Below the pieces are notes generated by a model. The model searched no databases and had not been told where the DNA came from. It was given only the letters and a program-made list of their open reading frames with translations. Positions 9,655 through 51,916 of a stretch of DNA of 60,242 nucleotides are shown here, one piece after another. This stretch comes from an uncultured Candidatus Saccharibacteria bacterium (GTDB taxonomy: Bacteria; Patescibacteriota; Minisyncoccia; Minisyncoccales; CG1-02-41-26), in NCBI GenBank assembly GCA_964383715.1, contig CAYLHU010000001.1, positions 17,733 through 77,974 on the forward strand, in the 5' to 3' direction. The position numbers were made by a program, and so were the translations under genes. Each line of letters begins with the position of its first letter. Positions within the stretch are counted from its first letter, which is position 1.

Positions 9655-9922
9655 CTTACGAAGTAAGGGTTCGTTGGAGATGAAGCTTTAGCTTCATCGA
9701 CTATACACCGAGCTTTTGCGAAGTAACTCAAAGATTTTTTTCAAAAATCTTTTCCACTCACCCTTGCTTTGCAAGGGTTCGTAAGCGAAGGTAATGCGAT
9801 GAAAGATTACTTTCATCTTAACTCGCTCACAAAATGAGCCCGTAGATGAGAGCGAAGCTCTCATCGCCTACGAGCCCACGAAGTGGGCGAGTCAAGATGA
9901 AGACGAAGTCTTCATCGCCTAC
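9655..9922. repeat. Hairpin-element array
   Basis: gatgaagctttagcttcatc (9679-9698), gatgaaagattactttcatc (9798-9817), gatgagagcgaagctctcatc (9845-9865), gcccacgaagtgggc (9874-9888), gatgaagacgaagtcttcatc (9896-9916), plus the composite accgagcttttgcgaag... module. Confidence 0.9.
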
Positions 9923-17140: not shown

Positions 17141-17419
17141 AAATACTATTTTATCTACTTTCAGTATAATCCTATTTTTCGAAGAATCCAAACAAAAAAT
17201 CGCTTGAATAAAAAAACGATTTGTATTTGTTGCGGAGCTTGGATTCAGACACCGAGTTTTTGCGAAGCAACTCAAAGAGATAAATCTCTTTTCTACTTTG
17301 CACTTTTGCTTCGCAAAAGTTTAAGTAAGTGAAGGTAAAGATGAATGCGGAGCATTCATCGCCCTTCGGGCTTTGTTCAAGATGAATGCTTGCTATTCCG
17401 TAGCCTTGGCGAAGGATAG
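17141..17419. repeat. Hairpin-element array, left flank of tRNA-Gln
   Basis: Contains the composite module accgagtttttgcgaagcaactcaaaga..., gatgaatgcggagcattcatc (17339-17359) and agcccttcgggct. Confidence 0.85.
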
Positions 17420-17490
17420 TTGCGGGGCTAGGACTCGAACCTAGATAGACAGCTCCAAGGGCTGTTGTCCTACCGTTAGACGACCCCGCA
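17420..17490 (-). tRNA. tRNA-Gln (anticodon UUG)
   Basis: Cloverleaf folded by hand. It has a U1-A72 pair, T arm CTAGG-TTCGAGT-CCTAG and anticodon arm ACAGC-CCTTGGA-GCTGT. The loop appears to have C at position 33. Confidence 0.75.
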
Positions 17491-17728
17491 TTAGGAAGTG
17501 AATAAGTGGATAAGTGGGGGCGATGAAGGAGTACCTTCATCTTGACTCGCTCACTTCGTGGGCTCGTAAGTGAACAAGTGGGTAAGTGGGTAAGTGAAGG
17601 CGATGAATACTCCGCATTCATCTTGACCCGCCCACTTCGTGGGCTCACGGGCGATGAATGTTTCGCATTCATCTTGACTCAACCCTTTGGGTTTCGTAAG
17701 TGAACAAGTGAGCACTTGAGCACTTAAA
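17491..17728. repeat. Hairpin-element array, right flank of tRNA-Gln
   Basis: Three units of gcgatgaNNN-loop-NNNtcatcttgac, each followed by a gcccacttcgtgggc-type UUCG hairpin. aagtg-rich words lie between them. Confidence 0.85.
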
Positions 17729-28373: not shown

Positions 28374-28456
28374 AACTCTTTTTATGCTCGAATAAAAAGA
28401 GTTTAAAAAAAATGACGGGGTTAAACCCAGTCATTCTCCGTCATTTTTTTTCAAAG

Positions 28457-43749: not shown

Positions 43750-44298
43750 TTATTTATATTGCCAAAAATTATTTGTTTTGATTTGATATACATCTTTCAA
43801 GGTATTGTTATCTAATTCACGAATTAAAAATTTTTCTATCGCTTTATAAAAATCATCTGCTGATGATTTTTCTCTCAAGTTTTGAAAATTTTCTTGGGTT
43901 AATAATTCGTAAGTAAATTCAAAAATAGTTTCTTTGTTTTTATCAATAATACATTTTAATTCTGTCGAATCTGTATCTTTATTGGTGCTTTTATTGTAGT
44001 TTATTTCGTGTTTTATCACAAATCGGTCACCATAAACCTCTTCTAAGGTTTTTATGGATGCTTGGACTGATAGATTACCAGTATTTTTTAGTTCTAATCG
44101 TTTCCCAAATTTATCAAGTAAAAAACCTAAAAACTCATCTCCCCACGATGGTGTAAATGTTATTACGCCTTCAAAATCAACAATAATTTTTTCAGTTTTT
44201 TTAATTTCTTTTAGAGATGGCTTAAAAGCAGCTAAAGCCTCTCTGCCAAATTGTCTGCTGTTTAATGTTGAACCGAATTTTTTCAAGTATATTGTCAT
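43750..44298 (-). CDS. STAS-like (DUF4325-like) protein with a C-terminal extension
   Basis: The N-terminal 95 aa match the DUF4325 pattern as I recall it (IIVDFEGVITFTPSWGDEFLG). Sits 4 nt downstream of the GHKL ATPase gene. Confidence 0.55.
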   Translation of the reverse strand: MTIYLKKFGSTLNSRQFGREALAAFKPSLKEIKKTEKIIVDFEGVITFTPSWGDEFLGFLLDKFGKRLELKNTGNLSVQASIKTLEEVYGDRFVIKHEINYNKSTNKDTDSTELKCIIDKNKETIFEFTYELLTQENFQNLREKSSADDFYKAIEKFLIRELDNNTLKDVYQIKTNNFWQYK

Positions 44299-44302
44299 AT
44301 TA

Positions 44303-45040
44303 TTAAAACTTAATTAATACTAAACATCCTTGTAGATAGACATTTGATTTATTAATATCTAAATTTGCGCTATATTCTTTAATTTTAAGTATTGCATCGC
44401 CAGTATAAAATATTAAACTTATTTGGTTTGACATAATAACTTTTTTAACAAATTTTAGGCCATTACCCCTATATTCTGGTGCGCGGCCAGAAACAACTTC
44501 GGTAAAAGCAACTTTTAATGCTTCTTGGTGATTTAAAAGTTTTGGCCTTGCTTTTCTTAAAGTTTTTAAAATACCTTGTCCTCTGTCTGCTAAAACAATC
44601 CGTTTTTTAATTAAATCATAAGCAAAAAATATACCCGACATATCAGGCCAATTGCCAAGATTATGGTCAAAAGAATTATTACCAATTTCACCGGCAATAG
44701 CTGTAATTAATGGAAACATTTTCTTCAATCTTTCTACTTTTCCCAAATCATTTTCTAATTTTGATAATCGCGCCTGAAAAACTGATATATCTTGGCAATA
44801 AAAAAGAGATGGTATTTCGCTTTCAGATTTACTAACAGCCCATCTTTTAGCCGATTTGAACAAGTCACTTGTATTGTCTCTAATAAATTCTTCTACAACA
44901 AATCTTTTATAATATCTATGGTCTCCCTTTTTTTGGCGAATAGAAACCAGCTTGCCTGATTTATCCCATCTACGGAGAGTTTGGATAGAAACTCCAGCTA
45001 TACTCGCCACTTGACCTATTGTTAGTAATTTTGACTCCAT
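44303..45040 (-). CDS. MerR-type HTH fused to a GHKL (HATPase_c) ATP-binding domain
   Basis: LLTIGQVASIAGVSIQTLRRWDKSGKL (MerR HTH). N-box EIGNNSFDH, G1 box ADRGQGI and G2 box GNGL. The start at ATG 45040 (MESKLL) is preferred. Confidence 0.7.
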   Translation of the reverse strand: MESKLLTIGQVASIAGVSIQTLRRWDKSGKLVSIRQKKGDHRYYKRFVVEEFIRDNTSDLFKSAKRWAVSKSESEIPSLFYCQDISVFQARLSKLENDLGKVERLKKMFPLITAIAGEIGNNSFDHNLGNWPDMSGIFFAYDLIKKRIVLADRGQGILKTLRKARPKLLNHQEALKVAFTEVVSGRAPEYRGNGLKFVKKVIMSNQISLIFYTGDAILKIKEYSANLDINKSNVYLQGCLVLIKF

Positions 45041-45220
45041 AAATTGAAACTTATTTTCCGTAAACCTATACAAATTCCATATAAACCTATACATTATAAG
45101 TATATATTTTAGATAAATGTTTGTCAAATCAATATTTATCAAAAAAATGAAGAAAAAATACGGAGGTCAGACCTCCGTATTTCCCCATCCCACTGTTCGC
45201 TATTTATTGCTCACTACCTA

Positions 45221-45433
45221 CTATCCCAACTCTCCGATTAATTTTTTCTTTTTGCTGAAAATAAAAATATAAAGAATAGGCAAAATCGCCAAACTATTAA
45301 TTATTAGAAGGGCGACAAACCACCATTTTTGGGCTCTTTGAGCGGCTTTCCATAATGCCACTCCCTTCCAAGGGATAACCCAAGCGACTATTAAAAACAA
45401 AACCCATTGATTTTCAAATATAAATTGTCCCAT
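45221..45433 (-). CDS. Small two-TM membrane protein (hypothetical)
   Basis: WKGVALWKAAQR ... two hydrophobic helices and a Lys-rich end. Confidence 0.5.
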   Translation of the reverse strand: MGQFIFENQWVLFLIVAWVIPWKGVALWKAAQRAQKWWFVALLIINSLAILPILYIFIFSKKKKLIGELG

Positions 45434-45493
45434 AATTTTATTTTTTAACTAAAATTAACTGCTTAAATTACGGAGGTCAGACCTCCGTAATTT

Positions 45494-45652
45494 TTATGTC
45501 TCTTTTTTAAGAAACAAGTATATCGTAGCATTCTCTCCGTAGCCTTCTAAAATGGTGCCACATAATTCCCACCCATCTATCCCAAGATCGTTAAGCACTT
45601 TCTCTGCTTTTGATCTATGAACTGAAATTATCTTGTACTGATGTTTTTTCAT
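45494..45652 (-). CDS. Small DUF4177-like protein (52 aa), absent from the ORF track
   Basis: My translation is MKKHQYKIISVHRSKAEKVLNDLGIDGWELCGTILEGYGENATIYLFLKKET. The LNxLGxxGWEL pattern is characteristic of DUF4177 as I recall it. Confidence 0.55.
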   Translation of the reverse strand: MKKHQYKIISVHRSKAEKVLNDLGIDGWELCGTILEGYGENATIYLFLKKET

Positions 45653-45658
45653 ATTTTT

Positions 45659-45928
45659 TTAATTAAGTCCTCGACTTTTATATTTATTTTTAATAATGAG
45701 AATCCCACTAACGATTAACATAGCACCAATTGAAATTGATAAAAGGGTGTTAGGATAATAAAAATAAGCTACTCCTACTATCTTCTCAGCTCCCACTGCA
45801 GGTAAACGAAGACCATAGCTAGTTCTATAGGAAAAGCCAAAAATGTTATATGCACAAAGTCCTGTGCCAATTATAATCATTATTGCTCCTAAGTATTGTT
45901 TTATAAATTTCTTAATTTTTTCTCTCAT
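45659..45928 (-). CDS. Small membrane protein (hypothetical)
   Basis: The start at ATG 45928 (MREKIKKF) is preferred. The sequence upstream of it is a duplicated non-coding leader, also found upstream of the DUF3800-like gene. Confidence 0.45.
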   Translation of the reverse strand: MREKIKKFIKQYLGAIMIIIGTGLCAYNIFGFSYRTSYGLRLPAVGAEKIVGVAYFYYPNTLLSISIGAMLIVSGILIIKNKYKSRGLN

Positions 45929-46207
45929 AAATTTATTTTTCGCTCTTTCTTTTAAAATACTCCCTTTTTCATCTTTTATCAATCCTTTTGGAGAAGAATA
46001 AAAGATGACTGGGTTAAACCCAGTCATCTTTTGTCGTTGTCCACTAACATTAAATTACCGGGGTCAGACCTCGGTATTTTAATAATATGATAAAATTTGA
46101 GCGAAGCGAAAATTTGCAGCAGGGGCGGCAGGGCGCTACGAGATAAATCTCGTCTTTCCCTTTGCCCTACCATAAAATAAAAAACACATTTAGTGTTTTT
46201 TATTTTA
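45929..46207 (-). repeat. Duplicated leader module, copy L
   Basis: Aligns with 47619-47949, apart from an extra roughly 50 nt in copy R. It holds two hairpins and a 17-nt fragment of the tRNA-Trp 3' end (46117-46133). Confidence 0.85.
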
Positions 46208-46283
46208 TGGCAGGGGCGGCAGGGATCGGACCTGCAACCTTTGGTTTTGGAGACCAATGCTCTTCCAGTTGAGCTACACCCCT
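46208..46283 (-). tRNA. tRNA-Trp (anticodon CCA), copy 1, CCA encoded
   Basis: AGGGGTGTAGCTCAACTGGAAGAGC, anticodon arm TTGGT-CTCCAAA-ACCAA, and 3' end CGCCCCT-G-CCA. The T-loop reads TCCGATC, so C sits at the usually invariant U55 position. Confidence 0.8.
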
Positions 46284-46310
46284 AATTTTTCATAAAATTA
46301 TAATATTTTC

Positions 46311-46661
46311 TTACGCTTCTTTGTCTTTCTTTAAGTTAGCGCAATAGGCAAAATGAAAAAAATACTTGTCTAAGTCCTTTAAAGAGCTTTTATATTCTTT
46401 TCCTCCCGAAATTGCATCTAAAAAAACTTCTCTGGCTCGAGCAATTTCTCGCAATCGTTCTATCCAACGGGGGTCCCCTAATGTTAGGTCAAAAAGTTCA
46501 AGGGTTCGAGACACGGCATTTTTGAAGTTATCTTGATTTTCATTTTTCCAGCGAAGCACTCTACTCACTTCGCTCCCGATATTCCCGAGTTGCTCACAAA
46601 GAGAAAGATTTTGCCAACCTCCCGAAGATAATTCTTTATGAATGGATTTATAATTTTCCAT
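46311..46661 (-). CDS. Hypothetical all-alpha protein, paralog 1 (possibly MazG-like NTP-PPase superfamily)
   Basis: About three quarters of residues are identical by eye to 48050-48400. The motif CEQLGNIGSEV weakly resembles the MazG EExGE helix. Confidence 0.5.
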   Translation of the reverse strand: MENYKSIHKELSSGGWQNLSLCEQLGNIGSEVSRVLRWKNENQDNFKNAVSRTLELFDLTLGDPRWIERLREIARAREVFLDAISGGKEYKSSLKDLDKYFFHFAYCANLKKDKEA

Positions 46662-46767
46662 CTAATTAATAATTAATTTATTAACGATATTTTTTATTTT
46701 TTCTTTTGACATAATTTTTGAGTTAGTTTGATTTAAGAGCTTTTATTTTGATTTTAGTAATTTTGGG

Positions 46768-46795
46768 CTTGACAAGGTTATATAAATTACTATAC
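46768..46795 (+). promoter_or_regulatory. Sigma70-like promoter overlapped by a perfect inverted repeat
   Basis: TTGACA-16 nt-TATACT. The palindrome tactatact-gta-agtatagta (46787-46807) covers the -10 box and the likely start site. Confidence 0.5.
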
Positions 46796-46815
46796 TGTAA
46801 GTATAGTATTGAGAA

Positions 46816-46855
46816 AGGGCGTCGGCTCGATTGGCCGATGGCCCTTTTTCTTTTT
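46816..46855 (+). terminator. Intrinsic terminator, stronger in the plus orientation
   Basis: gggc-gtcggc-[tcgattg]-gccgat-g-gccc followed by tttttcttttt. On the minus strand the trailing run is only tttctc. Confidence 0.6.
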
Positions 46856-47618
46856 ACTCTAATTTACTATCGTCATGATGAAAATGAATGTTAAAAGTAT
46901 AATTTCTAAAATTATTCGTTAGTGTTTTGACGCCTAAATTCTCCTTAAATCTTTCCACGAATTTTCCTTTATATAAAGATGGTTTATCAATAATTTTTTC
47001 TTTAAGTAGTAGTTCATAGTTTATTGAACCAATTAACAAATCTGTTAATTGTAATAAGTCATTTGTTTTTGAATCCAAACGGCAAACTCCGGCAATGGCT
47101 AATCTTTTAAACTTGTTATTTACGCTATTTTTAACATTAACCTCAAACTTTATAATTTTTGGTGCAGTCATATCATCTGCTAAAACTATTAAAACCTCGT
47201 TTTTGCCTAAATTTCCTATTAATAATTGTTTAACGATTTGCTCATAAGCAATCCAAGGATTTTCGTTAAACTCTTTTTTGAAATACTCACTTCTCTTGTC
47301 TATTGTATAAGAAGCAAATTTCACACTTTTTGTTTCAAATAAAGTGTCCAAAACTTCTGATGCAATATTTATTTTAACTTTATTCAGATTATTAAATTTC
47401 AATTCCCACCAAAACCTATTTTTAGACCTAATATATTTTATTTTTTGTTGCAGGTAATATGGTTGTGAGCATTTTATCATTCCAACCGTAAAATACGGTT
47501 GGCTTTTTATGTCTAAAGTTCCTGATTCGTCAATAAAACAAAAAGGTGTCCAAATATTTTTATAGTCAGCTAAAGCTAATGCTTTATTTGTTTCTTTTTT
47601 ATTAAGATTATCAACCAT
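46854..47618 (-). CDS. DUF3800-like protein
   Basis: N-terminal FIDESG and C-terminal DSKTNDLLQLTDLLIG match the DUF3800 pattern as I recall it. Confidence 0.6.
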   Translation of the reverse strand: MVDNLNKKETNKALALADYKNIWTPFCFIDESGTLDIKSQPYFTVGMIKCSQPYYLQQKIKYIRSKNRFWWELKFNNLNKVKINIASEVLDTLFETKSVKFASYTIDKRSEYFKKEFNENPWIAYEQIVKQLLIGNLGKNEVLIVLADDMTAPKIIKFEVNVKNSVNNKFKRLAIAGVCRLDSKTNDLLQLTDLLIGSINYELLLKEKIIDKPSLYKGKFVERFKENLGVKTLTNNFRNYTFNIHFHHDDSKLE

Positions 47619-47949
47619 AAATTTATTTTTCGCTCTTTCTTTTAAAATACTCCCTTTTTGTCTTTTATCAATCTTTTTAGAGAAGAATAAAAAATGACTG
47701 GGTTTAACCCAGTCATTTTTTGTCGTTGTCCTACCAGTATTAAATTACCGGGGTCAGACCTCGGTATTTTAATAATATTATAAAATTTGAGCGAAGCGAA
47801 AATTTGCAGCAGGGGTGGCAGGAGGCGATGAGAACGAAGTTCTCATCTTGACTTCTCGCTACGCTCGTCGCGTGCTACGAGATAAATCTCGTCTTTCCCT
47901 TTGCTCTACCATAAAATAAAAAACGCATTCAGCGTTTTTTACTTTTCAG
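47619..47949 (-). repeat. Duplicated leader module, copy R, with an inserted hairpin element
   Basis: Same as copy L, plus an insertion at about 47823-47875 that contains gatgagaacgaagttctcatc. The tRNA 3' fragment lies at 47807-47822. Confidence 0.85.
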
Positions 47950-48022
47950 CAGGGGTGGCAGGGATCGAACCTGCAACCTTTGGTTTTGGAGACCAATGCT
48001 CTTCCAGTTGAGCTACACCCCT
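47950..48022 (-). tRNA. tRNA-Trp (anticodon CCA), copy 2, no encoded CCA
   Basis: Same sequence as copy 1 except for a canonical TTCGATC T-loop, a T6-A67 pair in place of T6.G67, and a 3' flank of CTG instead of CCA. Confidence 0.85.
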
Positions 48023-48049
48023 AATTTTTCATAAAATTATAATATTTTC

Positions 48050-48400
48050 TTACACTTTTTTATCTTTTTTTAAGTTAGCGCAATAGGCAAAATGAAAGAA
48101 ATATTGTTCTAAGTCCTTTAAGGAACTTTTGTATTCTTTTCCTCCCGAAATTGCGTCTAAAAATACTTCTCTAACTCGACCGATTTCTCTCAATCTTCCT
48201 TTCCAACGAGGGTCATCTAATGTTAAGTCAAAGAGTTCTAATGCTCGTTCAACTGCACCCCGAAAAAGATTTTTGTCTTTTCCTTGCCACCTATATGCTC
48301 TGCCGACTTCACTCCCGATATTCCCGAGTTGTTCGCAAAGAGAGAATTTTTGCCATTTTCCTGAATATAATTCTTTATGAATGGGCTTATAATTTTTCAT
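48050..48400 (-). CDS. Hypothetical all-alpha protein, paralog 2
   Basis: The start at MKNYKPIH (48400) gives a length matching paralog 1 and avoids overlap with the upstream MazG gene. Confidence 0.5.
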   Translation of the reverse strand: MKNYKPIHKELYSGKWQKFSLCEQLGNIGSEVGRAYRWQGKDKNLFRGAVERALELFDLTLDDPRWKGRLREIGRVREVFLDAISGGKEYKSSLKDLEQYFFHFAYCANLKKDKKV

Positions 48401-48444
48401 TTTACTATTTTTAAAAAAACAAAGGGAATAATTGCAAACATTAC

Positions 48445-48783
48445 TTACTCGTTCCAATCTTTTCTTTTGTTTTTTTTGGCGGTTTCTTTAGAAAAACCTT
48501 TAGGGTGTCTTTTTTGAAGTTTTTTTATATTTTCTTTTAAAATATCCTCTATGTCCCAACCGAAGAAATCACAAATCATCGCCACATACCATATAGTATC
48601 TCCTAAATTTTCTCTTATCCCATTTTTTTGATTATCTTCGTGAGAAAATGTTTTTTTAATACAACCAGCAACATCTCCAGCTTCTCCCGCAATTCCCAAT
48701 CCCCAAGTTAGAATCTCTTTTTCTTTGTTTTCAAATTTTTTAGCAGTTTTTTTACAAAGTTTTTGATATTCTTTTAATTTCAT
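48445..48783 (-). CDS. mazG: MazG-like nucleotide pyrophosphohydrolase
   Basis: GLGIAGEAGDVAGCIKK ... LGDTIWYVAMI ... NIKKLQKRHP. Confidence 0.7.
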   Translation of the reverse strand: MKLKEYQKLCKKTAKKFENKEKEILTWGLGIAGEAGDVAGCIKKTFSHEDNQKNGIRENLGDTIWYVAMICDFFGWDIEDILKENIKKLQKRHPKGFSKETAKKNKRKDWNE

Positions 48784-48802
48784 AAAATTATTTTTTATTT
48801 TT

Positions 48803-49366
48803 TTATTCTTTTGTATTACTTAAAAAAATTTTTAAATTTAAAAATTTAATTTCTTCCCTATTATTTTTCAAGTCCTTGAAAGTAAACTTTTGCGTTTCTT
48901 TGTCAAAAGACACACAACAATCTTTAATTACGATGATATCAAAGTTCCTGTCATAAGCCCCCTCTATTAAACTTCTTACACAAAGATTAGTTAAAATCCC
49001 GCAAACTATGATTTGTTTAGTTTTTTGTAATTCTTTTTCCAAATTAGTTTTTAAGAATGAGTCAATTTTGTATTTTGTAATAATTGTATCAGAATTTTTT
49101 TTATGAATCTTGTCAATAATTTCAACATTTTCAGAATTTTCAATAAAGGTTTTTTTTGAATTCTTTTCTATGTGGCGTATGAATATTACCTTATATTTAT
49201 TTTTTCTGCAAAAATCAATAAGATTATTAACTTTTTCTATAACCTGTGATATGTCTCCAATAAAATAATCCGAATTTTTATTAATCCACTCTTTTTCAAA
49301 GTCCACGAGAATTAATGCTTTTATGTCCAAATTCTTTATTCTTTTTATTTCTTTTTCCTTATCCAT
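48803..49366 (-). CDS. Isochorismatase-family cysteine hydrolase
   Basis: ALILVDFE, a conserved K in ITKYKIDSF, and GILTNLCV (catalytic Cys). The start at ATG 49366 is preferred. Confidence 0.7.
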   Translation of the reverse strand: MDKEKEIKRIKNLDIKALILVDFEKEWINKNSDYFIGDISQVIEKVNNLIDFCRKNKYKVIFIRHIEKNSKKTFIENSENVEIIDKIHKKNSDTIITKYKIDSFLKTNLEKELQKTKQIIVCGILTNLCVRSLIEGAYDRNFDIIVIKDCCVSFDKETQKFTFKDLKNNREEIKFLNLKIFLSNTKE

Positions 49367-49392
49367 ATTTTTTATTTTTTTCTCTAAAATGC

Positions 49393-49420
49393 TTGACAAA
49401 TTATAGTGGTGTGATATGAT
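49393..49420 (+). promoter_or_regulatory. Sigma70-like promoter for the 49497 ORF
   Basis: TTGACA-16 nt-TATGAT. AAGGAGGG lies 6-7 nt before the ATG. Confidence 0.6.
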
Positions 49421-49496
49421 ACAACCAGAACTGGAGCTGGCAAATATTCGGCTTCAAATGACAATTTAAACAATTAAATTATAAAGGAGGGTTGTA

Positions 49497-49757
49497 ATGA
49501 AATACCCGGAAAGTTTAGTAAAGAGGATCAGGGAAGAGTTCTCAGAAAAACATCTTCTGTTCGCGTTAGATCAGCAGAATACTCGCTTCGTGAGTGTCTT
49601 CCTCGAAGATAATTGTCAAGACGGCTTTGATCTTTTGGCCGAAAAAGTCCTTGTCGCTCTAAATGAAGGTGACTTGTTGATCATTAGGGAAGCGGCAGAG
49701 AAAGCGATCCGTCGAAAAAAACTTTATGAAGATTGGTTAAAGTATCTTCAGGAGTAG
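49497..49757 (+). CDS. Small hypothetical protein (86 aa)
   Basis: Own canonical promoter, strong SD and a plausible terminator (about 49790-49822). More G+C-rich by eye. Confidence 0.5.
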   Translation: MKYPESLVKRIREEFSEKHLLFALDQQNTRFVSVFLEDNCQDGFDLLAEKVLVALNEGDLLIIREAAEKAIRRKKLYEDWLKYLQE

Positions 49758-49834
49758 TAAATATCAACTATTCGGCATTAACTACCCTATGGCCCTGCGA
49801 TAACATCAACGGGCTTTTTCATTTCGTAGTTTTT

Positions 49835-50035
49835 AATTATTTACGAGTTTTTGCGAAGCAAGTCAAAGATTTTTTTTCAAAAATCTTTTCCACTCACTTG
49901 CTCCGCAAGTTCGTAAGCGAGTCAATCGATGAGGGTTCCACCCTCATCTTTACAAGCTCACTTTGTTCGCTTGTAGATGAAAGTACTCTTTCATCGCAAA
50001 TCACTGACATTCTAACATTCCAACAATTCCAATAT
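49835..50035. repeat. Hairpin-element array downstream of rpmG
   Basis: The composite module acgagtttttgcgaagcaagtcaaaga...tcttttccactcac is shared with 9705-9790 and 17250-17330. Also gatgagggttccaccctcatc and gatgaaagtactctttcatc. Confidence 0.85.
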
Positions 50036-50040
50036 TTCCC

Positions 50041-50202
50041 CTACTTCTTCCCTTCCTTATGTAAAACATGCTTCTTGCACCACTTGCAAAACTTCTTCAG
50101 CCCTAATTTTTCTTCAACTCCTTTTGATTTGTTGACCCTATAATTAACTCTTTTACATTCAGAGCATTGGAGTTTTATAAAGGGTTTCTTTTTTTTAGCC
50201 AT
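50041..50202 (-). CDS. rpmG: 50S ribosomal protein L33, absent from the ORF track
   Basis: My translation is MAKKKKPFIKLQCSECKRVNYRVNKSKGVEEKLGLKKFCKWCKKHVLHKEGKK. It has the CxxC...CxxC zinc ribbon and the LELKKFC-like motif typical of L33. Confidence 0.85.
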   Translation of the reverse strand: MAKKKKPFIKLQCSECKRVNYRVNKSKGVEEKLGLKKFCKWCKKHVLHKEGKK

Positions 50203-50319
50203 AATTTTTTAATTATTTACCCAAACAAAGTGAAATGTGAAAAAAGATACTATGAGATCTTGTCTTATCTTGTCTCGCCTACTATGCGGGATTATAAACA
50301 AAGTTCTCTTATCATTATA

Positions 50320-50392
50320 AGCCGAGACGCGGGGTTGAACCGCGGACCTCGTTATTACCAATAACGTGCTCTACCAACTGAGCTATCTCGGC
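50320..50392 (-). tRNA. tRNA-Thr (anticodon GGU)
   Basis: GCCGAGATAGCTCAGTTGGTAGAGC, anticodon arm CGTTA-TTGGTAA-TAACG and T arm CGCGG-TTCAACC-CCGCG. Confidence 0.85.
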
Positions 50393-50448
50393 AGATAAAT
50401 AAAAAGATTATTTATCATTTATTAATAATCATTTATTAATAATTATTA

Positions 50449-50533
50449 TGGGTGCGGTCGGAGTCGAACCGACGGGGCTCAAAAGAACAACTGTTTTACA
50501 GACAGATCCCACCCCCTATGGGACTACGCACCC
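50449..50533 (-). tRNA. tRNA-Tyr (anticodon GUA), long variable arm
   Basis: GGGTGCG acceptor, anticodon loop CTGTAAA, a long extra arm and T arm GTCGG-TTCGACT-CCGAC. Confidence 0.8.
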
Positions 50534-51193
50534 ACGAGCGATTATATACGAAAGCTTTGCTTTCGTATATAATCGCGAGTTAAGATGAAAGTAATCTTTC
50601 ATCGCCCACAAACTTATAATTATGAAAACTTTTTTTCATAATTATAAGTTTGTCAAGATGAGGGTAATCCCTCATCGCTATCGAGTGGTTAATTATGAAA
50701 GAGTTTCTTTCATAATTATAGGTTTATGAAGATGAGGGTAATCCCTCATCGCTAACGCTCGAACAGGCAAGAGCAATGAATGCTTCGCATTCATCTTTAC
50801 TCAGCCCTTCGGGCTTCGTTCAAGATGAGGGTAATCCTTCATCGACCGAGACTTCGCTTCGCGAAGTCGAAGGTGGAAAAGAGAACGGAGTTCTCTTTGA
50901 CTATAATCGAGTTTACGAAGCATTCAATGAAAACTTTCTTTCATAATTATAAGTTTGTCAAGATGAGGGCGGAGCCCTCATCGCTAACGCTCGAACAGGC
51001 AAGAGCGATGAATGCTTCGCATTCATCTTTACTCAGCCCTTCGGGCTTCGTTCAAGATGAGAGTAATCTCTCATCGGCCGAGACTTCGCTTCGCGAAGTC
51101 GAAGGTGGAAAAGAGAACGGAGTTCTCTTTGACTATAATCGAGTTTACGAAGCACTCAATGAAAACTTTGTTTTCATATCTAATCGTGAGTCA
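50534..51193. repeat. Largest hairpin-element array, containing a 232-bp tandem duplication
   Basis: At least 12 distinct hairpins. gctaacgctcgaacagg starts at 50751 and again at 50983. Eight GATGA...TCATC-type stems. Confidence 0.9.
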
Positions 51194-51916
51194 TTATAAA
51201 ATTATTTTACTATGCTTGTCTCTCCATTCCTTAATTTTTTTATGGTCGCCTGATAATAAAACTTTTGGCACTTGCCACTTCTTCTTTTTAAGAGAGTTTA
51301 TAAAAACTTCAGGTCGGGTATATTGAGGATATTCTATAAACCCTTTATCTTTACTTATTCTCTCTTTTAACAATTCCGGTTTACCAATAACTCCCGGCAA
51401 TAATCTAACCACGGTTTCAATTAACACCAAGGAAGCCAACTCTCCTCCCATCAAAACATAATCCCCTATTGAGACCTCTTCGTCAGTAATATACTTAGCC
51501 ACCCTTTCATCAATCCCTTCATAACGGCCGGAAATCAAAATTAATTTGTCATATTGGGAAAACTTCGTAGCCATTTTTTGATTGAATTTCTTCCCCCGTG
51601 GCGTAAATAGAATTATTTTTGATTTTTTGTTCTTAATGGTTCGGCTTTGCTCACCATCAACCCTGAGCGAAGTCGAAGGATTATTTTTTAGTTTTAAAGA
51701 TTGAATACATCGATAAATGGGTTCAATTTTGATAACCATTCCCCTACCTCCGCCGAAGGGCTTGTCATCCACTGTTTTTCTTTTATCCTTAGAAAAATCC
51801 CTCAAATCGTGAATCTTGATTTTAACAATTTTCTTATCCCTAGCTTTTTTAAGAAGCGATTGATTCAAATAAAAATCAAAAATCTTTGGGAAAATTGTAA
51901 TAATATCAATGTCCAT
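51194..51916 (-). CDS. trmD: tRNA (guanine37-N1)-methyltransferase TrmD
   Basis: DIITIFPKIF, GGGRGMV and SGRYEGIDERV. The start at MDIDII (51916) is preferred. Confidence 0.88.
   Translation of the reverse strand: MDIDIITIFPKIFDFYLNQSLLKKARDKKIVKIKIHDLRDFSKDKRKTVDDKPFGGGRGMVIKIEPIYRCIQSLKLKNNPSTSLRVDGEQSRTIKNKKSKIILFTPRGKKFNQKMATKFSQYDKLILISGRYEGIDERVAKYITDEEVSIGDYVLMGGELASLVLIETVVRLLPGVIGKPELLKERISKDKGFIEYPQYTRPEVFINSLKKKKWQVPKVLLSGDHKKIKEWRDKHSKIIL

What the first reader, a model, noticed from the sequence alone, without database searches (positions are those of the whole stretch)
45929..48400. Tandemly duplicated tRNA-Trp unit with tRNA 3'-end fragments and a DUF3800-like cargo gene
Two units about 1.7 kb apart share the same parts in the same order:
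- a leader of about 280-330 nt;
- a 16-17-nt copy of the tRNA-Trp 3' end (46117-46133 and 47807-47822);
- a terminator hairpin;
- a full tRNA-Trp;
- a 116/117-aa paralog.

The leader of one unit drives a small membrane protein gene, and the other drives a DUF3800-like gene. Direct repeats of a tRNA 3' end are the classic scar of site-specific integration at tRNA genes, yet no integrase is present.

The single C/T difference in the acceptor 3' strand (cggc versus tggc) is shared by each tRNA and its own neighbouring fragment. That implies either homogenisation within each unit or duplication of an already scarred unit.

MazG-like and isochorismatase-like genes follow immediately. Nucleotide- and NAD-metabolising genes of these kinds often occur in phage/defence conflict loci.
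Basis: partly seen in the sequence, partly recalled or inferred. Interest (0 to 1): 0.65.

Follow-up and report, generated by a model that had tools for sequence, protein, structure and literature searches.

The report
Duplicated tRNA-Trp block flanking DUF3800 gene
In a small candidate-phyla (Parcubacteria) genome, a 0.75-kb block holding a conserved small gene, tRNA-Trp, its terminators and the next gene's promoter occurs twice, with a mobile promoter-less DUF3800 nuclease-like gene and its small hairpin RNA between the copies. This is ordinary genome plasticity, with one new lead about how DUF3800 genes settle in genomes.

Summary
Two direct copies (733 and 782 nt) run from the ATG of a 116-aa gene to the ATG of the next gene. 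Each holds an intact tRNA-Trp and a 15-16-nt copy of its 3' end.

- The fragments bracket just 75/126 nt of remnant, not the DUF3800 gene.
- The 'leader' is two generic terminators plus a promoter.
- The C/T co-variation has about an 8% chance of being coincidence.
- There is no integrase among the 29 window ORFs that I scanned.

At least 17 related Parcubacteria have a single [DUF5674 - 109-aa gene - tRNA-Trp] block and no nearby fragment. The duplication is therefore lineage-specific.

Synonymous divergence of the paralogs is 0.7-0.9, yet the non-coding part is 93% identical. A population variant shows a gene-conversion tract between the units.

DUF3800 (PADLOC PDC-M04A, RNase H-like) is a solo passenger. 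It sits at eight unrelated sites in Patescibacteria and always carries a conserved convergent promoter-hairpin RNA. At four of the eight sites it lies between direct repeats of the next gene's start region.

Best reading: a duplication of the target around an inserted DUF3800-RNA module, laid over an older att-type scar.

The parts
47619..48400 (-). Repeat unit B (782 nt): 116-aa gene B, tRNA-Trp B, terminators, 3'-end fragment, promoter/RBS now serving DUF3800
   Evidence: Alignment A1 shows that similarity starts at the ATG of the 116-aa gene and ends at the ATG of the next gene.
45929..46661 (-). Repeat unit A (733 nt): same parts, serving the 89-aa membrane protein gene
48050..48400 (-). 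116-aa paralog B, a helical protein of unknown function that is conserved in more than 580 species
   Evidence: It scores 189 bits against the family HMM.
46311..46661 (-). 116-aa paralog A
   Evidence: It scores 191 bits against the family HMM. Against B, dN/dS is 0.18 and dS is 0.88.
47949..48022 (-). tRNA-Trp(CCA) B: canonical T-loop, U6-A67 pair, no encoded CCA
   Evidence: (71.6 bits).
46208..46283 (-). tRNA-Trp(CCA) A: T-loop reads UCCGAUC (C at position 55), U6.G67 pair, encoded CCA
   Evidence: (65.2 bits); alignment.
47904..47954 (-). Long A/U-rich hairpin abutting and overlapping the 3' end of tRNA B. It acts as a terminator and is part of the 126-nt remnant.
   Evidence: The stem shows a compensatory change relative to unit A (CGC/GCG versus CAC/GUG).
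46165..46215 (-). The same hairpin in unit A: 23-nt arms, 96% complementary, including the tRNA's CCCUGCCA
   Evidence: I7.
47807..47822 (-). 16-nt copy of the tRNA-Trp B 3' end (CCTGCCACCCCTGCTG), read as an att-type scar
46119..46133 (-). 15-nt copy of the tRNA-Trp A 3' end (CCCTGCCGCCCCTGC)
47823..47871 (-). 49-nt stretch present only in unit B. Its core (47827-47847) is one copy of a dispersed hairpin repeat, GTCAA-GATGAR-N-YTCATC-GCC.
   Evidence: The window holds 20 copies against 0.05 expected.
47689..47766 (-). Two terminator-like hairpins of unit B (47746-47766 and 47689-47721). Both belong to hairpin families that recur elsewhere in the window.
   Evidence: (D4).
46000..46076 (-). 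The same two hairpins in unit A (46056-46076 and 46000-46032)
   Evidence: Further copies lie at 45153, 45463 and 28407.
47644..47671 (-). Promoter-like TTGATA-16-TATTTT, 25 nt upstream of the DUF3800 ATG. The twin in unit A lies at 45954-45982.
46854..47618 (-). DUF3800 gene (254 aa), RNase H-like, PADLOC PDC-M04A
   Evidence: Pfam 4e-12; 3.3e-24; phrog_3732. DNA homology to other loci is limited to 47628-46765.
46769..46855 (+). Convergent small RNA gene of the DUF3800 module. It comprises promoter TTGACA-16-TATACT (46769-46796), a roughly 50-nt RNA (46803-46855) with a 10-bp hairpin and a conserved loop UCGAUUG, and a U-run that ends at the DUF3800 stop codon.
   Evidence: Covariation is shown. 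The covariance model hits 25 of 25 DUF3800 loci and nothing else in 765 kb.
46662..46740 (-). Possible remnant of the last ~20 codons of a DUF5674 gene (..KEKIKNIVNKLIIN*). Its stop codon abuts the ATG of paralog A, as in relatives.
   Evidence: The pairwise score is 44-45 against a shuffle 99th percentile of 38. The remnant is not significant with a family HMM, so it is suggestive only.
45659..45928 (-). 89-aa two-helix membrane protein gene served by the unit A promoter
   Evidence: It has 16 homologs and no family assignment.
48445..49399 (-). MazG-like gene (48445-48783) and isochorismatase-family gene (48803-49399). They occupy the place that DUF5674 holds in relatives.

Best explanation
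The locus is the conserved Parcubacterial tRNA cluster: tRNA-Tyr, tRNA-Thr, rpmG, DUF5674, the 109-aa helical protein gene, then tRNA-Trp.

In this lineage a segment of about 0.75 kb became duplicated in direct orientation. The segment holds the 109-aa-type gene, tRNA-Trp, its terminators, and the promoter and ribosome-binding region of the next gene.

At the junction of the two copies sits a promoter-less DUF3800 gene together with its convergent small hairpin RNA gene.
- The upstream copy gives DUF3800 the expression signals of the gene it displaced.
- The downstream copy keeps that gene, a small membrane protein, expressed.

The duplication is old, because synonymous sites of the paralogs are strongly diverged. 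The tRNA and the non-coding part are nevertheless kept nearly identical, by selection on the tRNA and by gene conversion spreading out from it.

The 15-16-nt tRNA 3'-end copies are a separate scar. They are what remains (75 or 126 nt, including a terminator that abuts the rebuilt tRNA end) of something that once integrated at the 3' end of tRNA-Trp. They were simply copied or converted along with the rest.

Shown:
- the anatomy;
- the single-copy state in relatives;
- the conversion tract;
- the mobility of the DUF3800-RNA module;
- the flanking start-region repeats at other sites.

Inferred:
- that insertion and duplication were one event;
- that the fragments are an att scar;
- that the hairpin RNA is transcribed and works with the DUF3800 protein.
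For: Single copy in relatives. In 17 Parcubacterial loci the 109-aa gene is followed directly by one tRNA-Trp. None has a fragment within 3 kb, apart from one 12-nt repeat 1 kb downstream in L028.

Same population. All contigs of the same population carry the identical two-unit state.

Divergence. dS between the paralogs is 0.88 and stays at 0.5-0.8 up to the last codons. After the stop codon, 30 of 30 nt are identical. The tRNA matches at 72 of 74 positions and the non-coding part at 260 of 280.

Conversion. Contig L003 has a cluster of four changes in unit A that reproduces unit B exactly.

The DUF3800 module.
- DNA homology to other loci covers only the coding sequence plus about 90 nt of 3' flank.
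- The gene sits at eight unrelated sites.
- Its dS against homologs is saturated and dN/dS is about 0.05, while the 3' hairpin stays at least 90% identical.
- The hairpin shows compensatory changes in 4 of 10 pairs, and 92.5% of cells are paired.

Flanking repeats. Local-alignment scores between the start regions of DUF3800 and of the next gene are 112 (window), 78 (L152), 64 (L143) and 39 (L155). For 259 control gene pairs the 95th percentile is 27 and the 99th is 52.

Older scar.
- The fragment spans the last T-loop base to the discriminator plus 1-2 nt.
- A terminator abuts the tRNA, and the presumed original terminator follows the fragment.
- In L028 a 12-nt repeat of the same part of tRNA-Trp flanks a single 312-aa gene and is followed by a terminator.

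No integrase was found among 29 scanned ORFs of the window.
Against: - No close relative with the unduplicated state, or with DUF3800 absent, could be found. The order of events is therefore inferred, not observed.
- Four of the eight DUF3800 sites show no flanking repeat. The repeat lengths (27 to about 780 nt) fit no known transposition chemistry.
- In L143 the repeated piece looks like DUF3800's own N-terminus rather than the target's.
- The left end of the repeat lies exactly at the ATG of the 116-aa gene. If the DUF5674 remnant upstream of unit A is real, a simple tandem duplication would predict the same remnant upstream of unit B. MazG is there instead, so at least one more rearrangement is needed.
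- High non-coding identity could come from constraint rather than conversion.
- The hairpin could be no more than a bidirectional terminator.
- The concordant G/A state of each tRNA and its own fragment is left to chance (about 0.08).
Confidence: 0.5

Rival explanations
1. Classical tRNA-targeted genomic islet. An integrase-borne element carrying DUF3800 integrated at the 3' end of tRNA-Trp. The fragments are its attL/attR, and the integrase was later lost.
For: - The fragments have the form of an att identity block and are unique to tRNA-Trp in the window.
- L028 has a comparable 12-nt repeat around one gene.
- L096 has an integrase-bearing island beside the same gene cluster.
- DUF3800 is accessory and defence-associated.
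Against: - Each fragment lies only 75 or 127 nt after its own tRNA, and DUF3800 lies outside both pairs.
- The repeated unit is 733/782 nt and contains a complete tRNA and a complete upstream gene.
- DNA homology of the DUF3800 module to other loci stops at its ATG and about 90 nt after its stop.
- The seven other DUF3800 sites do not directly abut a tRNA gene.
- There is no integrase in the window.
- The spacer and junction sequences were not found in viral contigs.
Confidence: 0.12
2. Plain segmental duplication of the tRNA-Trp block, unrelated to DUF3800. The duplication is kept for tRNA or protein dosage, or is neutral. DUF3800 landed between the copies later because the redundant promoter copy was a harmless landing place.
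For: - Both tRNAs and both 116-aa genes are intact and under purifying selection.
- Redundant copies tolerate insertions.
- Four of the eight DUF3800 sites have no flanking repeat.
Against: Start-region repeats around DUF3800 at three to four independent sites are far more frequent than around control gene pairs. Independent prior duplications at each site are therefore unlikely.
Confidence: 0.25
3. The fragment and spacer form a functional RNA element. The distal copy of the acceptor 3' strand would compete with the true 3' end for the tRNA's 5' strand. This would regulate tRNA-Trp maturation or read-through into the downstream gene, which would explain why each fragment matches its own tRNA.
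For: - In the minimum-free-energy folds of both units, the tRNA 3' end is sequestered in the long hairpin and the 5' acceptor strand pairs with the distal fragment (z = -10.3 and -7.9).
- The hairpin shows one compensatory change between the units.
- The non-coding part is much more conserved than synonymous sites.
Against: - The pairing is a trivial consequence of sequence identity.
- U6 pairs with either G67 or A67, so function would not demand the co-variation.
- No relative has the element and there is no Rfam match.
- The concordance has about an 8% chance.
- The spacer is partly made of a dispersed repeat.
Confidence: 0.06

Closest known systems
tRNA-gene integration scars (attL/attR direct repeats of the tRNA 3' end left by tyrosine-integrase elements; sublocation classes described by Williams 2002, cited from my own knowledge)
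   Same: - The repeat is an exact 15-16-nt copy of the stretch from the end of the T-loop to just past the discriminator.
- An intact tRNA is rebuilt, with a terminator directly behind it.
- The presumed original terminator follows the distal copy.
- Relatives lack the scar.
   Different: - Only 75 or 126 nt lie between the repeats.
- There is no integrase and no cargo inside.
- The scar is present twice because it lies within a larger duplicated block.
DUF3800 genes with associated structured RNAs (DUF3800-I to -XI motifs, Weinberg et al. 2017, PMC5737381); DUF3800 as an RNase H-like accessory of defence systems (PMC10910872, PMC13594972; PADLOC PDC-M04A)
   Same: - A DUF3800 protein lies next to a conserved small RNA-like element that ends in an intrinsic terminator, on the opposite strand.
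- It is often found in or beside restriction-modification loci (L134, L140, L152).
   Different: - The RNA here is a single 10-bp hairpin with a conserved loop and its own consensus promoter. It matches none of the Rfam families.
- The protein is a solo 250-aa form without TPR or other partners.
- Flanking repeats of the neighbour's start region have not been described, as far as I could find.
Tandem segmental duplication with concerted evolution (gene conversion) of tRNA or rRNA-containing repeats
   Same: There are two direct copies. The RNA gene and its flanks are homogenised while the adjacent coding sequence is diverged. A conversion tract is visible as a population variant.
   Different: The copies are separated by an inserted foreign module. 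The ends of the repeat coincide with start codons.
Promoter-less gene cassettes (integron cassettes, phage morons)
   Same: DUF3800 has no promoter of its own. In most contexts it starts 2-56 nt behind an upstream gene, or behind a borrowed promoter.
   Different: - There is no attC-like site and no integron integrase.
- There is no common platform, because the cassette sits at many unrelated sites.
- It carries its own convergent RNA gene.

Membership tests
tRNA-targeted integrative element / genomic island | Direct repeat of the tRNA 3' end downstream of an intact tRNA gene | tested here: met
   Exact copies of 15 and 16 nt lie 75 and 127 nt downstream. About 1e-4 such matches are expected by chance.
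tRNA-targeted integrative element / genomic island | Integrase (tyrosine or serine recombinase) gene within or next to the element | tested here: not met
   Pfam scans of 29 window ORFs (9 near the locus, 20 elsewhere) found no recombinase. The rest of the window is housekeeping.
tRNA-targeted integrative element / genomic island | Cargo genes lie between the tRNA (attL) and the distal repeat (attR) | tested here: not met
   Only 75 or 126 nt of non-coding sequence lie between them. DUF3800 lies outside.
tRNA-targeted integrative element / genomic island | Site empty in related genomes | tested here: met
   Seventeen related loci have tRNA-Trp without a nearby copy of its 3' end (L028 has a 12-nt repeat 1 kb downstream). 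No close relative was available.
DUF3800 (PF12686) / PADLOC PDC-M04A | Profile match above the curated threshold | tested here: met
   Pfam gives 47.5 bits against a cut-off of 21. PADLOC PDLC04353 gives 3.3e-24 over 220 of 232 positions.
DUF3800 (PF12686) / PADLOC PDC-M04A | Conserved acidic core of the RNase H-like fold (F-x-D-E-S-G and later D/E residues) | tested here: met
   D30, E31, S32, G33, E72, D148, E159, D187 and D193 are invariant in 24 homologs. The fold assignment is taken from PMC10910872. Activity was not tested.
DUF3800 (PF12686) / PADLOC PDC-M04A | Demonstrated anti-phage activity, and the partner genes of the candidate system | not testable with these tools
   PDC-M04 is a candidate system. 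No paper in the library mentions it.
DUF3800-associated RNA motifs (Rfam DUF3800-I etc.) | Match to one of the curated covariance models | tested here: not met
   cmscan of 46700-46900 at E up to 10 gave only weak terminator-like hits to unrelated families.
DUF3800-associated RNA motifs (Rfam DUF3800-I etc.) | Conserved structured element that co-occurs specifically with DUF3800 genes | tested here: met
   The element is present at all 8 contexts (25 loci) and nowhere else in 765 kb. Four of 10 pairs show compensatory changes. The model was built from these same loci.
DUF5674 + 109-aa protein two-gene module | DUF5674 gene immediately upstream of the 109-aa gene | tested here: not met
   The partner is present in 73 of 86 loci across several phyla. 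It is absent from the window, apart from a possible 20-codon remnant upstream of paralog A.
Riboswitch / T-box / known cis-regulatory leader | Match to a curated RNA family in the 'leader' | tested here: not met
   Rfam at E up to 1 over 44000-51500 found only tRNAs and chance-level hits.
Segmental duplication with gene conversion | Discontinuity of divergence along the repeat, and a polymorphic tract that copies one unit into the other | tested here: met
   Coding dS is 0.5-0.9, against 7% non-coding divergence. The L003 tract reads GTTAGT-GG to ACTGGTAGG.

The most novel reading that the evidence does not exclude
The DUF3800 gene plus its convergent hairpin RNA may be a self-contained mobile module. 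It would insert at or just upstream of the start codons of resident genes and leave a variable-length direct duplication of the target's start region (27 to about 780 nt). That duplication hands the promoter-less DUF3800 gene the target's expression signals while restoring them for the target. The RNase H-like protein and its RNA could themselves take part in this insertion, as RNA-associated nucleases of transposon origin do. Alternatively they could form an RNA-protein toxin/antitoxin-like or defence pair.
Probability: 0.2. Interest if true: 0.75.

Novelty: new variant of a known kind. Interest (0 to 1): 0.42.

Why it matters
The tRNA duplication and the scar are ordinary signs of genome plasticity at a tRNA hot spot. 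They are still notable in a minimal genome, which normally keeps one copy of each tRNA.

The useful by-product concerns DUF3800. This widespread RNase H-like domain has been known since 2017 to travel with many unrelated structured RNAs, and its function is still unknown. Three things seen here bear on that question:
- a compact protein-plus-hairpin-RNA form;
- saturated synonymous sites beside a nearly invariant RNA;
- repeated duplication of the neighbour's start region around the module.

Together these give a concrete, testable handle on how these genes spread and are expressed.

The analysis also flags two further items. DUF5674 plus the 109-aa protein is a tightly linked pair that is highly conserved across phyla. 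This genome also carries an abundant dispersed hairpin repeat.

Tried and rejected
- **Riboswitch or T-box leader.** No Rfam match. The 'leader' resolves into generic terminators and a promoter.
- **Coding potential of the leader.** The 122-aa ORF called by gene finders starts inside hairpin 2, and its frame is broken in unit B by a 1-nt indel. The real start is the ATG at 45928.
- **Unduplicated state in close relatives.** A genome-contig scan with the protein family returned 80 of more than 582 related loci. A metagenome scan with the tRNA T-arm/acceptor 25-mer gave 37 loci. Neither gave a close relative. The best homolog of the membrane protein lies at a contig end.
- **Element carrying the spacer or the junction.** No match in viral contigs.
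- **Fold of the 116-aa protein.** The AlphaFold2 model is confident (pLDDT 89, five helices), but Foldseek against the PDB gave nothing below E = 1.
- **DUF3800 as a phage gene.** There is one distant hit in a Gordonia phage and one in IMG/VR.
- **The 116-aa gene in phages.** None.
- **Recent horizontal transfer of DUF3800, inferred from 92% amino-acid identity.** Rejected, because dS is saturated.
- **5' remnant of DUF5674 near 49.6 kb.** The weak tblastn hits are in the wrong order and have no HMM support.
- **Within-unit homogenisation of tRNA and fragment.** Not needed. The chance of the observed concordance is about 0.08.


Full report
**Setting.**
The window is chromosomal DNA of a low-GC member of the Parcubacteria (Patescibacteria). 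The ORFs I scanned outside the locus are housekeeping genes: AspRS/LysRS-type and CysRS synthetases, DnaB, DNA polymerase III gamma/tau subunit (DnaX), Mur ligase, MraW, RNase III, RNase HII, SufB/D, TrmD and RmuC. The closest homologs of the locus proteins are named Parcubacteria, Patescibacteria and the like. All genes of the region lie on the minus strand.

The order on that strand is as follows.
- tRNA-Tyr. ARAGORN calls it tRNA-Phe(aaa), but the Rfam alignment shows the anticodon loop CUGUAAA, and relatives have tRNA-Tyr at this position.
- tRNA-Thr, then rpmG.
- An 86-aa ORF on the other strand.
- An isochorismatase-family gene, then a MazG-like gene.
- 116-aa gene B, tRNA-Trp B, DUF3800.
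- 116-aa gene A, tRNA-Trp A.
- A small membrane protein gene.
- DUF4177-like, DUF5652, an HTH protein and a DUF4325 protein.

The repeat finder and a pairwise alignment show two direct copies, 45929-46661 (733 nt) and 47619-48400 (782 nt). Similarity begins within about 3 nt of the ATG of the 116-aa gene and ends at the ATG of the next gene. The sequences upstream of the two 116-aa genes and downstream of the two next-gene ATGs are unrelated.

Each unit contains:
- an intact tRNA-Trp (65.2 and 71.6 bits);
- a long A/U-rich hairpin whose 5' arm includes the last 8 nt of the tRNA;
- a spacer;
- an exact 15- or 16-nt copy of the tRNA's 3' end.

A 15-mer is expected about 1e-4 times in the window, and none of the other five tRNAs has such a copy.

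**What the 'leader' is.**
After the fragment come two terminator-like hairpins. Both belong to hairpin families that recur elsewhere in the window.
- TACGGAGGTCnGACCTCCGTA also occurs at 45153 and 45463.
- ATGACTGGGTTnAACCCAGTCAT also occurs at 28407, just downstream of tRNA-Glu.

They are followed by a promoter-like TTGATA-16/17-TATTTT about 25 nt before the ATG. Rfam finds nothing but tRNAs. The 122-aa ORF that gene callers extend into this region starts inside a hairpin and is out of frame in unit B. The leader is therefore an ordinary intergenic region: terminators for the tRNA, then a promoter and ribosome-binding region for the next gene.

**Relatives have one copy.**
The 116-aa protein has no Pfam or NCBIfam family. 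It does have more than 1,600 homologs of about 109 aa at 60-78% identity, and relatives in at least 582 species-level genomes.

In 17 Parcubacterial loci the gene is followed within 3-60 nt by a single tRNA-Trp. It is preceded by tRNA-Tyr, tRNA-Thr, rpmG and a DUF5674 gene. None of these loci has a copy of the tRNA 3' end within 3 kb. The one exception is L028, where a 12-nt copy lies 1,002 nt downstream, beyond a single 312-aa secreted-protein gene, and is followed by a terminator.

All 22 contigs that encode exactly paralog A belong to one population and carry the identical two-unit arrangement wherever they are long enough. A scan of metagenome contigs with the tRNA's T-arm/acceptor 25-mer brought 37 loci, none closely related. 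The duplication and the fragments are therefore specific to this lineage. I could not find the immediate unduplicated ancestor.

**Age and homogenisation.**
The paralogs are 75% identical. Both score like ordinary family members (191 and 189 bits; family quartiles 189-201). They evolve under purifying selection (dN/dS 0.18) with dS of about 0.9, and dS stays at 0.5-0.8 up to the last 26 codons.

Immediately after the stop codon the picture changes.
- 30 of 30 nt are identical.
- The tRNA matches at 72 of 74 positions.
- The non-coding part down to the next ATG matches at 260 of 280 aligned positions.

One contig of the population (L003) differs from the window by a cluster of three substitutions and one indel within 9 nt of unit A. 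The cluster reproduces unit B exactly, which makes it a short gene-conversion tract. The hairpin behind the tRNA also shows a compensatory change between the units (CAC/GUG versus CGC/GCG), so some selection on structure acts as well.

The simplest reading is an old duplication. Its tRNA is held constant by selection and serves as a seed for conversion of its flanks.

**The tRNA fragments.**
The repeated block runs from the last base of the T-loop through the 3' strands of the T and acceptor stems to the discriminator plus 1-2 nt. From general knowledge of tRNA integration sites, this is the form of identity block left by elements that integrate at the 3' part of tRNA genes. The layout fits that reading: a terminator abuts the rebuilt tRNA end, and another terminator follows the distal copy. 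The L028 case gives independent support.

The fragments enclose only 75 nt (A) or 126 nt (B). The 49 nt that B has in addition contain one copy of a dispersed hairpin repeat, GTCAA-GATGAR-N6-10-YTCATC-GCC. That repeat occurs 20 times in the window (0.05 expected) and clusters around tRNA genes.

The shared G/A state of each tRNA and its own fragment is weak evidence. Of 105 G/C-containing non-coding sites, 18 differ between the units, and 17 of the 20 substitutions are transitions. A second difference at the homologous site in the concordant direction therefore has a probability of about 0.17 x 0.5 = 0.08.

RNA folding puts the tRNA's 3' end into the long hairpin and pairs the 5' acceptor strand with the distal fragment. 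That follows trivially from sequence identity. U6 pairs with either G or A, so function would not require the co-variation.

**DUF3800 is the real passenger.**
The 254-aa protein matches:
- Pfam DUF3800;
- PADLOC PDC-M04A at 3.3e-24;
- phrog_3732.

Published work describes the domain as an RNase H-like fold linked to defence systems and mobile elements (PMC10910872 and PMC13594972). It has also been associated with eleven unrelated structured RNA motifs of unknown function (PMC5737381).

Its closest homologs are 83-92% identical in protein. Synonymous sites are nevertheless saturated (dS at least 1.1, dN/dS about 0.05). The protein is therefore simply very conserved, not recently transferred.

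It occurs as a solo gene at eight unrelated places in Patescibacteria:
- between the restriction and modification genes of two type III-like systems (two sites);
- after a peptidase M48 gene;
- after a YifB-like gene;
- after LigT;
- after RecR;
- in front of a type I hsdR;
- here.

DNA similarity between the window and those loci is confined to 47628-46765, that is, the coding sequence plus about 90 nt downstream.

**A conserved RNA gene belongs to the module.**
The 90-nt flank is more conserved than the coding sequence. On the strand opposite to DUF3800 it holds a consensus promoter (TTGACA-16-TATACT, 46769-46796). About 7 nt later comes AGUAUUGA(A/G)AAA, then a 10-bp hairpin with one bulge and the loop UCGAUUG, then a U-run that ends at the DUF3800 stop codon.

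Across eight contexts, 92.5% of cells pair and four of the ten pairs show changes on both sides. A covariance model finds the element at all 25 DUF3800 loci and nowhere else in 765 kb. The model was built from these loci, so only the absence elsewhere is informative. No Rfam family matches.

The element may be a small RNA partner of the protein, in line with the 2017 observation. At the least it is a conserved bidirectional terminator. I could not test transcription.

**Start-region repeats around DUF3800.**
DUF3800 has no promoter of its own. At five of the seven other sites (L134, L140, L143, L149, L155) its ATG lies within about 10 nt of the stop of an upstream gene. At L146 the gap is about 55 nt and at L152 about 285 nt.

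I compared the 120 nt around the DUF3800 start with the 120 nt around the start of the next gene. The local-alignment scores were:
- 112 for the window (the 733/782-nt repeat);
- 78 for L152 (about 130 nt, from -95 to +35);
- 64 for L143 (from -1 to +47, sharing the first ten codons);
- 39 for L155 (27 nt).

Scores in the other four contexts were 17-21. Among 259 adjacent gene pairs from the same loci, the 95th percentile is 27 and the 99th is 52. Four of eight above the 95th percentile has a binomial probability of about 4e-4.

So the large duplication in the window looks like an extreme case of a recurrent pattern. The DUF3800-RNA module sits between two copies of the region around its downstream neighbour's start. 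The first copy drives DUF3800 and the second keeps the neighbour expressed. I do not know the mechanism. The variable length fits no standard target-site duplication. A tandem duplication with a templated insertion at its junction, or insertion into a pre-existing duplication, are both possible.

**Which unit is ancestral.**
In 73 of 86 loci, across several phyla, the 109-aa gene is immediately preceded by DUF5674. The window has no DUF5674 gene. The roughly 70 nt directly upstream of paralog A translate, in the frame that ends with a stop codon abutting the ATG, to NSKIMSKEKIKNIVNKLIIN*. This resembles the DUF5674 C-terminus (for example NPKIREEIKRIVKKLIIE*), with pairwise scores of 44-45 against a shuffle 99th percentile of 38. 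A family HMM does not make it significant.

If the remnant is real, unit A sits in the ancestral context. Everything from the isochorismatase gene to the DUF3800 RNA gene would then have been added or rearranged upstream of it. MazG and the isochorismatase occupy the place of DUF5674, are absent from the relatives' synteny and have no PADLOC match. I have no evidence for or against a role in conflict.

**Verdict.**
The finding is real and the locus is a rearrangement hot spot. It is not a tRNA-integrated island with DUF3800 as cargo.
- The fragments are best read as an old, nearly emptied att-type scar.
- The two units are best read as a duplication associated with the insertion of a DUF3800-RNA module, later homogenised by gene conversion.

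I rate the finding as moderately interesting. The tRNA part is ordinary. The DUF3800 part adds a new RNA partner and a new insertion signature to an open question.

Noticed in passing
window 9679-9916, 17340-17673, 31539, 47827, 49928-49995, 50584-51075, 60201: A dispersed palindromic hairpin family, (G)TCAA-GATGAR-N6-10-YTCATC-GCC. The stem interiors vary and the ends are conserved. There are 20 copies against 0.05 expected. The copies cluster around tRNA genes and are often accompanied by small GAAG/CGAAG-loop hairpins. It resembles a REP-like element of this genome.
   Followed up: partly
window 50582-51178: Tandem repeats upstream of tRNA-Tyr: a 232-nt unit x 2.1 (93% matches) and a 74-nt unit x 2.4. 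Each unit contains hairpins of the dispersed family followed by TTGACA. The ORFs called here (50780-51199, 51012-51326) are probably artefacts of the repeat.
   Followed up: partly
window 50448-50534: ARAGORN calls this tRNA-Phe(aaa). The Rfam alignment shows the anticodon loop CUGUAAA (GUA) and a long variable arm, and relatives have tRNA-Tyr(GTA) at this position. It is tRNA-Tyr.
   Followed up: yes
L011-L096 (for example L028 4634-5330, L091 608-1298): DUF5674 and the 109-aa helical protein form an adjacent, often overlapping gene pair in 73 of 86 loci. The pair keeps 50-77% identity across Parcubacteria, Chlamydiae, Verrucomicrobia, Planctomycetota, Elusimicrobia, Omnitrophota and others. 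Conservation this high across phyla suggests a horizontally spread two-gene module of unknown function. The window has two copies of the second gene and none of the first.
   Followed up: partly
L028 5368-6452: In a Nealsonbacteria genome, a 12-nt copy of the tRNA-Trp 3' end (GGCGCCCCTGCT) lies 1,002 nt downstream. It flanks a single 312-aa secreted cysteine-rich protein gene and is followed by a terminator. This looks like an integrase-less islet at the same tRNA.
   Followed up: partly
L096 1-4976: A tyrosine integrase, an LPD38-domain giant protein and an amidase lie directly upstream of DUF5674 - 109-aa gene - tRNA-Trp in another Parcubacterium. The same tRNA cluster is an insertion hot spot there.
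   Followed up: no
window 43750-45142; L152 956-1998: A 279-aa protein has a MerR/excisionase-type HTH (PADLOC mad1 1.5e-13 for the HTH only; phrog_3364 for the C-terminal part). It is followed by a DUF4325 (STAS-like) protein and lies 0.5 kb downstream of unit A. A similar HTH protein plus a small ORF lies upstream of DUF3800 in L152.
   Followed up: no
window 46208-46283 versus 47949-48022: tRNA-Trp A has C instead of U at T-loop position 55, a U6.G67 wobble pair and an encoded CCA. Copy B is canonical but lacks an encoded CCA. Two tRNA-Trp genes are unusual for so small a genome.
   Followed up: partly
L143 4001-4047 and 4865-4911: The first 10 codons of DUF3800 (MGLFSSSKKI) and of the following 82-aa ORF are identical at the DNA level. 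The N-terminal 10-14 residues of DUF3800 proteins are otherwise hypervariable, up to the conserved L-x-D-Y-K-x-I-W-T-P-F-C-F core.
   Followed up: partly
L155 3001-6625: Another DUF3800 gene (53% identical), from the same sample series as the window's population, lies after recR. It is followed by several AAA_33/KTI12-type kinase-like genes and an isochorismatase gene. This echoes the isochorismatase near the window's DUF3800.
   Followed up: no
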